Source of the DNA: the human T2T-CHM13v2.0 reference genome, Homo sapiens
Assembly: GCF_009914755.1 (NCBI RefSeq)
Contig: NC_060935.1
Length of the DNA stretch: 64,000 nucleotides
Strand: one strand, 5' to 3'
Shown in pieces: positions 34,337 through 63,169 of this stretch. Each line of letters begins with the position of its first letter. Position 1 is the first letter of the stretch. The notes below the pieces were generated by a model. The model was not told the DNA's origin. It saw nothing but the letters and a program-made list of their open reading frames with translations, and did no database searches. The translations under genes and the position numbers were made by a program.

Positions 34337-34370
<34 letters not shown>
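34337..34370. repeat. (TA)17 microsatellite
   Basis: Directly visible. Confidence 0.95.
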
Positions 34371-34373
<3 letters not shown>

Positions 34374-38257: not shown

Positions 38258-38599
<342 letters not shown>

Positions 38600-41591: not shown

Positions 41592-44044
41592 TATTTTCTT
41601 AAATCTTCTTGATTGTGTAGTATCTCATTTACAGGATTAGTAAAAGTTTCAAATTTTTAAACTCAAATTCCCTTAGTTAATTCTATGTTGTTACTCAAAA
41701 TGACTTTTTATTAGAGGATAGACTATCTAAATTCTCATGTATAGAATACAATATTTCACGTAAATACCTTTATGTAAGAATATAAAGGAGAATTATGTGG
41801 CTGGGAAACAATGTTTTTGGTTTAAATTAATCAGTACAATTTTTATGTCTGATCAAGGTAGAGACTCTCTTTAGGGATTATTGACAACTACACAGCCAAG
41901 CAAGAAACAATAATATTCATTAGTTGTTATTTAGCTATATATAAATATCAGGAACGACCTCTAACTCTTTGTGTCACCCATTAGGTAACCTCCATATTCT
42001 GAAATTTTTGTCAATAAGCCTAGATCCAGGGACTGTAGATCTGGTAGAAAAACAAAACAGTTACCTTGAACATCTTTTGACTTCTTTATTCTCTGCAGTG
42101 CATTGGTGTTCATGTCTTACAAGACACAAGTAAAGTTCAGGGGTCCATTTCAGGATGTTTGTAATAAGGAAATGGAACATTCAGGTTGTTCCATTTCCTT
42201 ATTACAAAAATCATCTTATTTGTTTAGTACTTCACTAATAAACTCTAATCCCTCCTTCTCAGTCCTTCCCTTCTTCTCATGGAGAGTATTTTTGATTGAA
42301 TGTTAGAAGGTTTGGGGTTATAAACATCTATATTTATTTTAAAAAATAATTATCAAAAATAATTATTAATCATCAATAATCTCACAATAGTAAGATTTGC
42401 TTATCTCCAAAAAAGAAAGTTATTTTTTACAATCCAAACCACAGGTTTTTTCATGATGAAAACATTATCACTTATGACTATCCATAAATCTGTCATTTCC
42501 ACTTTTTATGTTTATGATACATTTTCTGTGATAAAGGACTTCTCTTCAATTCTAGCAATATACTTAAATTCACCACTATTCTAATTTTCTGTTTGTTCAG
42601 TATTCAATGTTAAATTCTCCAGTAACTGATTCCAATAATACTTGTACAAAAACTTCTTAGACTACAATGTATATTTTCCCTAAATGCCCAGAAATTGCTG
42701 CAAATAATCATACAAACAATCCAAATGAAACTCTTCATTCCAGTTATTGAAACACATTGCACATGGATAACTTGAAAATAATTGGCATGTATGCTATCAA
42801 TCTCTCTCGGCTGTTTGATAATTACTGAGGTTCTGTAATTACTGAGGTTCTGTCTATAAGAACAGCAAAAATATAATTTTAGAATCTTATACCTTTTTTG
42901 AAGACAACAATACAAAAATACCATTTGAAGTATAGCTGTAACTTTGTATTTGATTCTAACATTGGTGTTGGGAAGGGAGAATAACGTAAGTTTAGGTTTA
43001 CATATTTTAGTGAAAGGAGAACTTGATTGGAAATGCTGTTACCAACCATGACCCAGTGAAGTGTTTACAAGAGTAATTTTTACTGTAGAAAGACTCTAGA
43101 GTGTTGAAACTGAAACACTGAAACTGAATCATTCACAAAGCCATGCCAGGTATTATTTCTATCAGATGCTGATTAATGCATACATTTTATTTAGAGGAAG
43201 TTACTACTGAGTTATTAAAATGGGAGACTGTCAGTTTCAGAGTGATTGATGTCTAGAATGGAAAAGATTTACGAGTTAGGTTTGAAGAAGTATCTAAAAC
43301 ATTTCTAGTGTGGATTTTTCAAGTGTAAATATCTAAAACAAATAATTTGTTTATTTTATTATCTAACCAAACTTGCAATGAATGCCCACTATAACCAAGC
43401 CCCTGAGCTAGGTACTGTGATCTGTCCTGAGATAGTTACAGTTTCTCAGCTGAATGAGTTATGGACCATGCTCTCAGGTATCTGAAGAAAATTATATGAC
43501 TATGTCAAATATTAATAAAATAAATACTATAAGGAAAGTGGACTACTAGCTGTTAAAATTAATGAAACAATCATTCTTGGATCAACTGCCACTTGAGCTT
43601 ACTCCTCTAAAATTTAGTCTTTTAGAATTTAGACACATAGAGCCAATGCAAGAAAGGTATTACTAGACAAAGGAAGGTACAAAATTAAAGAAACATCTGG
43701 CTGTAATATGATCCTAGCACACTGTTGCTTTTGGTATGCGAGATAAGTAAAGGTTGAATTTAGAGAATAGGATGATTGGATGACATGGCGTAGTAAAATC
43801 ATTAAGAGACCTGAATGACAAGCCCAGAAGTTTAGGTTTTACTTCATTGATAGTGGATAGCACCTAGAGTTCTATGAGCAGAAGAACATCTAGGTTTTCT
43901 AGAGTAGAAAATACAGTGAAAATACTCAGAAAGGGAAAAACAAATACAGTCCCTTTCTGAGTTTTTAAGATGGCCCTGGGGCTGCTTTAGTATATAAAGT
44001 AAAATGCTAGTATGTCAACATTTTCAATAGAATCATTAGGGCCT

Positions 44045-60963: not shown

Positions 60964-61469
60964 TTAAGGGGTGCTGACTGAATTTAAGTTACATAATCAT
61001 CTAATCACACATAGTACTTGCAATAATGTTTGGCACACAGCAAACATTATATATGTGTCAGCTACTGTTAATATTTATTGTTATCAATACTATTGTTTAT
61101 ATCCCTCCAGTCACCTAGGCTGTTGGATTTGATCTTTTTTAAAAAAAGTTTATGAAAGGGGTACCACAGGAAACTGGAAAGCATAGATGCTTATATTACA
61201 CATCCAATATAATATGACCATTTTCCTCTACTAAACTGTCAAATTCTCAATTTAAATGAATTACGAATGTGTATCTCAATTGGAAATAAAAGCATAAAAT
61301 GGATAAGAGAAATAATCTCAGTTAGAGGTGTAACCATACCTTTACTAAGCCTTGTGAAAATCAATAAATAAATATGTAAATAAACAAATACATTCTTGTA
61401 ACCTCAGTTTCTGTTTCACAAGCTCATTGTAAATATTGATGGGATTAACTTCATAAAATCCTATTTATC

Positions 61470-62130
61470 CATATATTGATTTATTCATAAAAAGTATTTT
61501 ATGGTGGACATTGTTTTAGAAACAAGAGACAAAATTATGAAAAATATAGACAATGTCTACCCTCTTGGAGCTTTTATTCTACTGTGGAGAAGATGGAGAA
61601 TAAATAAGAAAAAATAAACAAACAATGTAATTACAAACTGTGATGGTGCTCAGAAGAAAATAAAACAGGTTTATCTGATAAAGAGTAATTAGAAAGCCAC
61701 AGAAGGCACATCTAAGAATGTGGCATTTAAGCTGGGGCTTGAAGAATGAGTAAATGCCCAGAGAATAAAACAGAAAGTTCAAATGCAATATATACATATA
61801 TGGCATATATATGGCATATATATATATATATATATATAGTCTCATCTCCCATGATGTTCCCTTCTTTTCAGCAGTAATAATTTTTCATTGTTTTCACTCA
61901 AGTATGTCAAATTCTATATATACATGTAGAACATATATATAGAATTTGACATACTTGAGTGAAAACAATGAAAAATTATTACTGCTGAAAAGAAGGGAAC
62001 ATCATGGGAGATGGGACAAGAGATAGATTATGTAGAAGCATTGTACATGGTATGATATTTATTCTAAGTTTAAGTAGAGCCATTCAAGGGCTGAAGGAAG
62101 GCCATAGTGGGTAAGATATTTGATTTTCTT
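61470..62130 (-). mobile_element. Decayed L2 fragment interrupted by a TA tract and an inverted duplication
   Basis: ctaccctcttggagcttttattcta; gtggcatttaagctggggcttgaagaatgagta; tttattctaag...agagccatt. Confidence 0.6.
61843..62013. repeat. Perfect inverted repeat with 80-bp arms (61843-61922 and 61934-62013) and an 11-nt spacer
   Basis: Checked base by base: 80/80 complementary. Spacer is CATGTAGAACA. Confidence 0.98.
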
Positions 62131-62146
62131 GAAGGAAAAAAAATGC

Positions 62147-62631
62147 CTTGAACAACATACTTCTAAATAACAAATGAATCAGAAAAGAAATCTCCAGAGA
62201 AATATTGAAAAGATTCTGAAGTTCATGCAATGAAAAGGTAACATCAAGATTTGTTGGATGAGGCAAAAAAGTGCTTGCAGGAAAATTTATAGCACTGAAT
62301 GAATTCATTAGAAACGAAGAAAAATGTAAAATCAGTAATCTAAGCTTCCACTTCAGGAAACTAGAAAAAGAACAACAGATTAAATCCCAGCCTAACAAAA
62401 GAGAAGAAATAATAAAACTTAGAGCAGAAATCAATGGAATTAAAAACATAAAATCAACAGAAACAAATTCAACGAAACCAAATGCCGGTTCTTTAAAAAG
62501 TTGAATACCATCAATAAGCTTCTAGCCAAGCAAACTAGGAAAAATACAAGAGAGAAGAGACGGAAATTACTAATATTATAAATGAAACAGATGGCATTCA
62601 TACAAATCCCATAAACATTAAAATGATTAAG
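62147..62631 (+). mobile_element. Old L1M ORF2 fragment (post-endonuclease region)
   Basis: GKFIALNEFIRNEEKCKISNLSFHFRKLEKEQQ...EIIKLRAEIN. Confidence 0.9.
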
Positions 62632-62912
62632 TAATATTGGGTCTTCCTATCCATGAACAAGGACTATCTTGCCATTTATTTAGTTCTTCTTTTATATCTT
62701 TTATGAGAGTTTTGTAACTTTTCTAATATAGATCTTGTACCTATTTTGTTACTTTTTGGGTGCTAACATAATGGTAATGCATTTAAAATTTTAAATTAAA
62801 CTTACCTGTTGTTGGTATACAAGAAAGTGATTGTCTTTTGTGTATTAGCCTTGTTTCCTGCAGCATGGCTGTAATTCAGATTTTCTACATAAATGATCAT
62901 GTCATCTGCAAA
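62632..62912 (-). mobile_element. Old L1M ORF2 RT fragment in the opposite orientation
   Basis: The reverse complement of about 62882-62912 encodes FADDMIIYVE. Confidence 0.85.
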
Positions 62913-62923
62913 GGTGGCTTTGC

Positions 62924-63169
<246 letters not shown>

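What the first reader, a model, noticed from the sequence alone, without database searches (positions are those of the whole stretch)
61839..62017. Perfect 80-bp palindrome born inside an ancient L2 at a (TA)n tract
Seen: arms 61843-61922 and 61934-62013 are 100% complementary around an 11-nt spacer, extending to 84 bp with one mismatch. The left arm is bounded by TA repeats on both sides. The right arm appears to continue colinearly into the flanking, heavily decayed L2-like sequence. Established: long perfect short-spacer palindromes extrude cruciforms and are unstable, and replication template switching can create such hairpins in one step. Inference: the left arm is a very recent fold-back copy primed within the self-complementary TA tract. 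It may be lineage-specific or polymorphic. If transcribed from either strand it gives an 80-bp dsRNA stem, a candidate de novo miRNA/endo-siRNA precursor or ADAR substrate.
Basis: partly seen in the sequence, partly recalled or inferred. Interest (0 to 1): 0.8.

Follow-up and report, generated by a model that had tools for sequence, protein, structure and literature searches.

The report
Inverted self-copy making an 80-bp palindrome
A stretch of an old, decayed repeat on human chromosome 11 was copied backwards right next to itself, making one of the longest perfect hairpin-forming palindromes in the genome, by a known copying error and with no sign of a function.

Summary
Arms 61843-61922 and 61934-62013 are perfectly complementary over 80 bp, or 84 bp with one T/G mismatch, around the 11-nt spacer CATGTAGAACA. 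Either strand folds far better than any of 200 shuffles.

The structure is single-locus in the T2T genome. A 32-nt piece of the arm, allowing up to 3 mismatches, hits only the two arms. It is therefore not a MITE.

I built a profile from 49 genomic copies of the surrounding dispersed repeat, which I recall as the L2 3' region. The upstream flank, spacer, right arm and right flank are colinear on the + strand. Deleting the TA tract and left arm in silico turns two partial hits into one 37.5-bit hit; 0 of 300 shuffles reach that score, and the reverse orientation breaks the hit. The left arm is therefore the inverted copy.

This fits a template-switch mutation of type 1-4-3-2. At 84 nt it is long, but within published ranges.

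"Very recent" is not shown. Arm identity only bounds the age to about 19-56 My at most. No outgroup or population data could be reached. Nothing supports an RNA role.

Verdict: a new member of a known kind, notable mainly for its length.

The parts
61656..61787 (+). Upstream part of the old dispersed repeat (L2 3' region by recall). It ends in GTTCAAATGCA, just before the TA tract.
   Evidence: 61656-61753 matches profile positions 26-130 with E 7.3e-7. The alignment runs on to 61787 in the contiguous alignment. Identity to the profile consensus is 80 of 124 aligned columns.
61788..61838 (.). TA-rich tract at the outer junction of the left arm. It includes the perfect 11-mer tandem ATATATGGCAT x2.5 at 61796-61823. 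It has no counterpart in the repeat-family profile.
   Evidence: TRF rows. It had to be removed together with the left arm to restore one contiguous profile hit.
61839..61922 (-). Left arm: the inverted (reverse-complement) copy of 61934-62017. It has no place in the colinear repeat.
   Evidence: Exact over 80 nt, with 1 mismatch in 84. With the middle segment in this orientation the profile hit breaks into 17.8 + 10.8 bits.
61923..61933 (+). Spacer CATGTAGAACA. It is original repeat sequence, not new DNA. It contains a small ATGT/ACAT stem that shrinks the loop to 3-5 nt in the predicted folds.
   Evidence: It aligns to the profile directly after GTTCAAATGCA. Folds.
61934..62017 (+). Right arm: the original, source copy. 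It begins with a TATATATA run that is an insertion relative to the family profile.
   Evidence: 61993-62100 matches profile 268-398 with E 3.3e-6 in the unmodified sequence. The whole arm aligns in the contiguous 37.5-bit hit. 0 of 300 shuffles of 61923-62017 reach that score.
62018..62100 (+). Right flank of the same repeat copy, with the conserved TTATTCTAAGT...AGCCATT motif.
   Evidence: The motif occurs 177 times in the genome against 2 for the reversed control. Identity to the consensus is 57 of 83 columns.
61779..61812 (+). Upstream member of a 34-nt imperfect direct repeat (28 of 34) with 61907-61940, which spans the inner end of the left arm, the spacer and the start of the right arm. 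TCAAATGCAATATATA here resembles TCAAATTCTATATATA there. This may be the homology used for the return switch, or the trace of an older small duplication.
   Evidence: the repeat finder family D1. 0 of 2000 dinucleotide shuffles reach its score either way, but the best of 23 other TA tracts in the window scores 17 against 19, so it is only suggestive.

Best explanation
This is a local, one-step inverted duplication. An 84-nt stretch of an old, decayed dispersed repeat (L2 3' region by recall) was copied in reverse complement and inserted 11 nt upstream of itself, at a TA run.

The most likely route is a short-range template switch during replication or replication-coupled repair. In the four-point model this is type 1-4-3-2 (mirror 3-2-1-4):
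- The growing strand leaves its template at the end of the (TA)n tract (point 1, about 61838/61839).
- It copies the neighbouring sequence backwards from 62017 to 61934 (points 2 to 3).
- It returns through the TATATATA run to continue with the spacer (point 4, 61923).

The two TA runs on either side of the spacer could already pair with each other before the event. That gives a small AT hairpin able to nucleate the fold-back. This step is inferred.

The product is a neutral structural mutation. It can form a hairpin or cruciform, so it is expected to be deletion-prone. No function is indicated.

Shown: the palindrome itself, its uniqueness in the genome, and which arm is the copy. Inferred: the enzymology, the order of switches and the age.
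For: 1. Exact 80-nt arms, 84 nt with one mismatch, and an 11-nt spacer.
2. Single locus. The whole element, its right half and its upstream flank find only themselves in the 3.1-Gb genome. A 32-nt arm pattern with up to 3 mismatches finds 2 places, which are the two arms.
3. The flanks belong to one copy of a dispersed family. A motif from the right flank occurs 177 times against 2 for the reversed control. A profile from 49 copies hits 61656-61753 (positions 26-130, E 7.3e-7) and 61993-62100 (positions 268-398, E 3.3e-6), same strand and same order.
4. Removing 61788-61922 in a script gives one contiguous hit over positions 34-398 (37.5 bits, E 7.9e-13). Removing the left arm alone, or the right arm instead, leaves two separate hits.
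5. Orientation control. With 61923-62017 reverse-complemented the hit breaks into 17.8 + 10.8 bits. 0 of 300 shuffles of that segment reach 37.5 bits (mean 26.7, maximum 36.9).
6. The arms differ by at most 1 in 84, while this repeat copy matches the profile consensus at only 42 of 84 (arm and spacer) to 80 of 124 columns. The duplication is therefore far younger than the repeat.
7. The palindrome is not a family trait. In 49 other copies the longest perfect inverted repeat is 5-9 nt.
8. At the mismatch, the profile consensus line shows 'a' where the left-arm copy implies A and the right arm has G. This fits one later substitution in the source arm.
9. Published mechanism. Template switching makes perfect hairpins in one event (PMC10710096: abstract, section 9 and passages). 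Type 1-4-3-2 made up 31% of high-confidence human-chimp events (PMC5453318, passages). Lengths up to 90 bp in complex sequence, and 97-180 bp maxima per individual, are reported (PMC9435742, passages).
Against: - No outgroup or second haplotype was seen, so the ancestral state is reconstructed only from a family profile. That alignment is weak in the arm (50% identity; the best shuffle reached 36.9 bits against 37.5).
- The 51-nt TA tract with its 11-mer tandem is not explained by a clean 1-4-3-2 event. It must either pre-date the event or be filler or later expansion.
- The 34-nt direct repeat (61779-61812 / 61907-40) would fit an event whose return point lies before its departure point. That class was not observed in PMC5453318.
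- Microhomology at the first switch is poor: 1 exact base, or 8 of 12 imperfect.
- The product cannot distinguish replicative switching from fold-back repair of a break.
Confidence: 0.8

Rival explanations
1. The product is the same, but it was made by repair of a double-strand break in the fragile TA tract. The resected 3' end folds back on the TA runs, primes synthesis on its own strand, and is then rejoined (fold-back or microhomology-mediated repair) rather than by a switch at a moving fork.
For: TA runs flank the spacer and could form the priming hairpin. TA-rich filler at the outer junction and weak microhomology there are typical of end-joining or repair junctions (general knowledge).
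Against: Sequence alone cannot separate this from a replicative switch. Published surveys treat such products under the template-switch model without deciding the enzymology (PMC5453318, passages).
Confidence: 0.2
2. An old palindrome, tens of millions of years or more, whose arms are kept identical by arm-to-arm gene conversion or by selection on a hairpin.
For: Arm identity alone allows ages up to 19-56 My. The direct repeat around the centre is 18% diverged (28 of 34). If it arose in the same event, the event would be old.
Against: Conversion-maintained palindromes known to me are kilobase-scale (recalled). Long short-spacer palindromes are described as unstable (PMC7999016, passages). There is no sign of function, and the direct repeat is barely above other TA tracts.
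Confidence: 0.07
3. A miniature inverted-repeat transposable element, or another mobile element with long terminal inverted repeats.
For: Its shape (two long inverted arms and a short centre) and the TA-rich target.
Against: There is only one locus in the genome. There is no target-site duplication: 61829-61838 TATATATATA against 62018-62027 AAGAGATAGA. The right arm and spacer are colinear host repeat sequence.
Confidence: 0.01
4. An assembly or sequencing artefact (a fold-back chimera) in this assembly.
For: Palindromes are known trouble spots for cloning and sequencing (PMC7999016 and PMC13155455 discussion, passages).
Against: The structure is a short internal insertion with normal colinear sequence on both sides, an asymmetric spacer and one arm mismatch. 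That is not the shape of a read-end fold-back. A consensus of many long reads should not fix a chimera (inference). Reads were not available.
Confidence: 0.03
5. A functional hairpin RNA locus: a young miRNA or endo-siRNA precursor, or an ADAR substrate.
For: Either strand would give an 80-84-bp stem. Template-switch hairpins have become miRNA genes (PMC10710096).
Against: No Rfam family reaches its gathering score; the best is 81.5 bits against 200. No transcript is annotated over the site in the gene table given with the finding. The stem is more than twice the roughly 35-bp design. Only 57 of 6,054 suitable genic hairpins were annotated miRNAs (PMC10710096, section 9), and this site is intergenic.
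Confidence: 0.03

Closest known systems
Template-switch mutations that create inverted repeats (four-point model type 1-4-3-2 / 3-2-1-4; Loytynoja & Goldman 2017, PMC5453318; Monttinen et al. 2023, PMC10710096)
   Same: A reverse-complement copy of adjacent sequence is inserted a few bases from its source. This gives a perfect hairpin in one event, with otherwise colinear flanks.
   Different: At 84 nt it lies in the far tail of reported lengths (mean 11.56 bp; longest in complex sequence 90 bp; PMC9435742). It sits inside a masked repeat next to a microsatellite, a context those surveys filtered out. The ancestral state here is inferred from a repeat-family profile, not from an outgroup.
Quasipalindrome correction by strand switching (Ripley model, as described in PMC5453318 and PMC10710096)
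   Same: A pre-existing short, imperfect inverted repeat (here the two TA runs around the spacer, possibly with TCAAAT/ATTTGA) could nucleate the switch.
   Different: The classic model perfects an existing repeat. Here about 76 nt of new arm were added beyond any pre-existing complementarity.
Palindromic AT-rich repeats (PATRR11, PATRR22, PATRR17)
   Same: A near-perfect palindrome with an AT-rich centre, able to form a cruciform, and expected to be unstable.
   Different: PATRRs are several hundred bp, very AT-rich and without a real spacer (PMC7999016, passages). This one is 179 bp in all, 68% AT, with an 11-nt spacer. No rearrangement is known at this site.
Largest perfect short-spacer inverted repeats catalogued in the human genome (PMC13155455, Supplementary Table 4)
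   Same: The ten largest listed have arms of 140, 118, 95, 93, 88, 86, 84, 80, 80 and 80 bp. This one has 80-bp perfect arms.
   Different: That catalogue allowed spacers of at most 8 nt, so this locus (11 nt) is not in it. Five of the ten listed have 2-12% GC and so are presumably simple AT repeats, whereas this one has 30% GC and complex sequence.

Membership tests
Template-switch mutation, type 1-4-3-2 (four-point model) | A fragment that is the reverse complement of nearby sequence at high identity | tested here: met
   80 of 80 identical, 83 of 84.
   The source starts 11 nt from the end of the copy.
Template-switch mutation, type 1-4-3-2 (four-point model) | The sequence on both sides of the copied fragment is colinear with the ancestral sequence | tested here: met
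   Shown by proxy only. The repeat-family profile is colinear across upstream flank, spacer, right arm and right flank once 61788-61922 is removed.
Template-switch mutation, type 1-4-3-2 (four-point model) | An ancestral allele without the copy is seen in an outgroup or another haplotype | not testable with these tools
   No primate or other human genome was reachable. The genome search holds only this genome and prokaryotes.
MITE / non-autonomous DNA transposon | Many dispersed copies | tested here: not met
   Only self hits. A 32-nt arm pattern with up to 3 mismatches gives 2 hits, which are the two arms.
MITE / non-autonomous DNA transposon | Target-site duplication flanking the inverted repeats | tested here: not met
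   61829-61838 TATATATATA against 62018-62027 AAGAGATAGA.
PATRR | Several hundred bp, extremely AT-rich, near-perfect palindrome (PMC7999016) | tested here: not met
   179 bp in all, GC 31.8%, 11-nt spacer.
miRNA precursor (any Rfam family) | Reaches a family's gathering score | tested here: not met
   0 of 49 matches reach the gathering score. The best is MIR7723, 81.5 bits against 200. The hits are to unrelated, mostly plant or lineage-specific hairpin families, on both strands.
miRNA precursor (any Rfam family) | Stem of about 35 bp with an apical loop of 10 nt or more (PMC10710096), and evidence of expression and processing | tested here: not met
   The stem is 80-84 bp, and the predicted loop is 3-5 nt after inner pairing. 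Expression cannot be tested here.
L2 LINE, 3' region (name recalled) | Membership of one dispersed ancient family, with both flanks in the same order and strand | tested here: met
   Motif 177 against 2 control. Profile hits at E 7.3e-7 and 3.3e-6.
L2 LINE, 3' region (name recalled) | Match to the curated L2 consensus (Dfam/Repbase) | not testable with these tools
No repeat library is on hand.

The most novel reading that the evidence does not exclude
The 84-nt copy is a human- or great-ape-specific event, perhaps still polymorphic. It made one of the roughly ten longest perfect short-spacer palindromes of complex sequence in the human genome. That palindrome acts in vivo, either as a cruciform-forming, deletion- or break-prone site or as a source of hairpin-derived small RNAs.
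Probability: 0.1. Interest if true: 0.6.

Novelty: new member of a known kind. Interest (0 to 1): 0.3.

Why it matters
It is a clean natural example of a hairpin born in one step. Because the source lies in a dispersed repeat, which arm is the copy can be read from the repeat family itself, without an outgroup.

Its perfect arms equal the 8th to 10th longest in a published catalogue of human perfect inverted repeats. The locus escaped that catalogue only through its 11-nt spacer, and it escaped the template-switch surveys because they mask repeats.

That makes it a reasonable test locus for palindrome stability, polymorphism and cruciform formation in human DNA. The mechanism is already described and nothing points to a function, so the wider significance is modest.

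Tried and rejected
- **Rfam scan of 61000-63000**: only sub-threshold, structure-driven matches to many unrelated miRNA families on both strands. It gave no family assignment.
- **Whole-genome DNA searches** with the element, its right half and its upstream flank: they find only the locus itself. The tool is not sensitive enough to pull in old repeat copies, so I switched to a motif search.
It still recovered the family.
- **First profile from 30 loci** and its iteration: the iteration picked up Alu-like sequence from the flanks. I replaced it with a tighter 417-nt cut from 49 copies. L034 was dropped because it carries the same motif string as L020, and L001-L004 because they are the locus itself.
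- **Extension of the palindrome to 95 nt**: rejected as arm, because the extra 11 positions are (TA)n pairing with 7 of 11 purine-rich bases.
- **Priming from the small ATGT/ACAT stem inside the spacer**: worked through by hand. It predicts a centre 2 nt shorter than observed, so I rejected it in favour of pairing between the TA runs.
- **An event with the return point before the departure point**, which would explain the 34-nt direct repeat: kept only as a minor possibility. That class was not seen in PMC5453318, and the repeat's score is close to that of other TA tracts.
- **LINE twin-priming inversion at the time of insertion**: rejected, because the arms are nearly identical while the repeat copy matches its profile consensus at only 50-69% of aligned columns.
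- **Earlier findings** were not open. **PMC1310899**, on the NF1 palindrome, is not held.
- **Supplements of PMC10710096**: listed but not read. They cover miRNA and genic loci, and this site is intergenic.

Full report
**What is there**

The sequence and the repeat finder confirm the observation. 61843-61922 and 61934-62013 are exact reverse complements over 80 nt. Extending to 61839-61922 / 61934-62017 gives 84 nt with one mismatch, T61842 opposite G62014. That mismatch is a G-U pair in + strand RNA.

The spacer is 61923-61933, CATGTAGAACA. The arms have 30% GC and no CpG.

The repeat finder extends the pair to 95 nt at 95%. The extra 11 positions are only (TA)n pairing with 7 of 11 purine-rich bases, so I do not count them.

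Outside the left arm lies a TA-rich tract, 61788-61838. It holds a perfect 11-mer tandem at 61796-61823. Both arms end at the centre in an 8-nt TA run.

Folding gives:
- -96.7 kcal/mol as single-stranded DNA (z -26.5)
- -143.2 kcal/mol as + strand RNA (z -26.1)
- -141.1 kcal/mol as - strand RNA (z -27.6)

In each case 0 of 200 shuffles fold as well.

In the whole window only 7 non-overlapping perfect inverted repeats have arms of 14 nt or more and spacers up to 30 nt. The next longest are a pure TA repeat (25 nt) and a 22-nt complex one.

**Is it a repeat family or a one-off?**

The window's own genome (3.1 Gb, 24 contigs) could be searched. The element, its right half and its upstream flank find only this locus. 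A 32-nt piece of the arm with up to 3 mismatches finds 2 places, the two arms, and 0 for the reversed control. There is no target-site duplication. A mobile element with long inverted ends is therefore rejected.

**Which arm is the original?**

A motif modelled on the right flank occurs 177 times in the genome (88 + 89), against 2 for the reversed control. The flank therefore belongs to a dispersed family. No curated library was available to confirm the name.

I took the 30 loci returned and fetched 20 more. I dropped one apparent duplicate and built a profile from 49 copies.

In the unmodified window the profile hits 61656-61753 (positions 26-130, E 7.3e-7) and 61993-62100 (positions 268-398, E 3.3e-6). 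Both hits are on the + strand and in the right order, and the second reaches 22 nt into the right arm.

When 61788-61922 (TA tract plus left arm) is left out in a script, the two hits fuse into one over positions 34-398 (37.5 bits, E 7.9e-13). In that alignment GTTCAAATGCA is followed directly by the spacer, then the right arm. Leaving out only the left arm, or the right arm instead, does not fuse them.

Controls:
- With 61923-62017 reverse-complemented, the hit falls apart into 17.8 and 10.8 bits.
- With that segment shuffled, 0 of 300 trials reach 37.5 bits (mean 26.7, sd 3.0, maximum 36.9).

The alignment in the arm is weak, 42 of 84 columns identical to the consensus, against 80 of 124 upstream and 57 of 83 downstream. 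The inference is sound but not overwhelming.

The spacer and right arm are thus original repeat sequence, and the left arm is an inverted extra copy. In 49 other copies of the family the longest perfect inverted repeat is 5-9 nt, so the palindrome is a property of this locus and not of the family.

**How it most likely arose**

The structure is what a short-range template switch of type 1-4-3-2 gives. Synthesis leaves the template at the end of the (TA)n tract. It copies 62017 back to 61934 from the other strand or from the nascent strand itself. It then returns to continue with the spacer.

This class creates an inverted repeat and made up 31% of high-confidence human-chimp events (PMC5453318, passages read). 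Template switching is documented to create perfect hairpins in one event, with inferred events of up to 83 bases (PMC10710096; abstract, section 9 and passages read).

Among polymorphic human events the mean length is 11.56 bp. The per-individual maxima are 97-180 bp, and the longest in complex sequence in one data set is 90 bp (PMC9435742, passages read). At 84 nt this event is long but not unprecedented.

The return switch has 8 nt of TA homology. The first switch has only one exact base, or 8 of 12 imperfect pairs.

Before the event, the TA run left of the spacer and the TA run right of it could already form a small AT stem around the same 11-nt loop. I take that to be the nucleation point, but this is inference. 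A break in the TA tract repaired by fold-back synthesis would give the same product and cannot be told apart from a replicative switch here.

**What remains unexplained**

The 51-nt TA tract has no counterpart in the family profile. It either pre-dated the event, was made as filler during it, or expanded later.

A 34-nt direct repeat (61779-61812 against 61907-61940, 28 of 34) links the sequence before the TA tract with the palindrome centre. No dinucleotide shuffle reaches its score (0 of 2000 in each direction). The best of 23 other TA-rich tracts in the window scores 17 against its 19, so it is only suggestive. It could be the homology used for the return switch or the trace of an older small duplication.

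A reading in which the return point precedes the departure point would explain the direct repeat. That class was not observed in PMC5453318.

**Age**

One difference in 84 positions gives a best estimate of 6-12 My and a 95% upper bound of 28-56 My, for rates of 1e-9 and 0.5e-9 per site per year. No difference in 80 positions gives an upper bound of 19-37 My.

The event is much younger than the repeat it sits in. It may be human-specific, ape-wide, or older still. At the mismatch, the profile consensus agrees with the base implied by the left arm. This fits one later change in the source arm, though the evidence is weak. No primate or population data could be reached, so lineage-specificity and polymorphism are untested.

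**Function**

Nothing indicates one. All 49 Rfam matches are below their gathering scores. They go to many unrelated hairpin families on both strands, which is what any long perfect stem gives.

The gene table supplied with the finding lists no transcript over the site. The 84-bp stem is far from the roughly 35-bp pri-miRNA design. Only 57 of 6,054 suitable genic hairpins were annotated miRNAs (PMC10710096, section 9).

The expected behaviour is that of a long, short-spacer, AT-centred palindrome, prone to hairpin or cruciform formation and to deletion (PMC7999016, passages read). This was not tested.

**How unusual it is**

A catalogue of perfect inverted repeats with spacers of at most 8 nt lists the ten largest in Homo sapiens, with arms of 140, 118, 95, 93, 88, 86, 84, 80, 80 and 80 bp (PMC13155455, Supplementary Table 4). 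I did not check which assembly its coordinates refer to.

This locus has 80-bp perfect arms but an 11-nt spacer, so it falls outside that catalogue. With a looser spacer limit it would tie for eighth, although other loci might then join too. Five of the ten listed have 2-12% GC, whereas this one is complex sequence with 30% GC.

**Verdict**

This is a real, single-locus, near-perfect palindrome. It was made by an inverted duplication of adjacent old repeat sequence, most likely by template switching at a TA run. It is a new member of a known kind. It is of moderate interest for its length and for the clean way the copy can be told from the source. Its age is open and there is no evidence of function.

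Noticed in passing
window 42158-42208: A second perfect inverted repeat of complex sequence, with 22-nt arms (TTTGTAATAAGGAAATGGAACA) and a 7-nt spacer. Exact matches in the genome are only its own two arms. The 7 further hits at 2 mismatches are no more than the reversed control gives (9 in total against 9). It may be another small template-switch product.
   Followed up: partly
window 61796-61823: A perfect 11-mer tandem, ATATATGGCAT x2.5, inside the TA tract. It resembles the start of the right arm (ATATATAGAAT, 9 of 11 by eye). Its origin is unclear.
   Followed up: partly
window 62150-62450 and 62919-62990: Downstream of the old repeat the sequence reads like an ancient L1 ORF2 fragment, and further on like the start of an Alu. 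Both names are from recall. The Alu-like stretch contaminated the iterated profile and was hit at E 4.3e-11.
   Followed up: no
G000 C1:141385, C1:223130152, C1:227174429, C1:242453569, C2:242637331, C3:200965207, C4:121951266, C5:181902424, C7:54036: Nine of the listed motif hits carry the same 27-nt string (TTATTCTAAGTGCAATGTGAAGCCAAT). Several are near chromosome ends, as expected if one copy of the repeat was spread by recent segmental or subtelomeric duplication.
   Followed up: no
window 38346-38395 and 34338-34371: Pure (TA)n palindromes of 25 and 17 nt per arm. The window holds 24 TA-run blocks in all, so this AT-rich gene desert offers many self-complementary TA sites.
   Followed up: no
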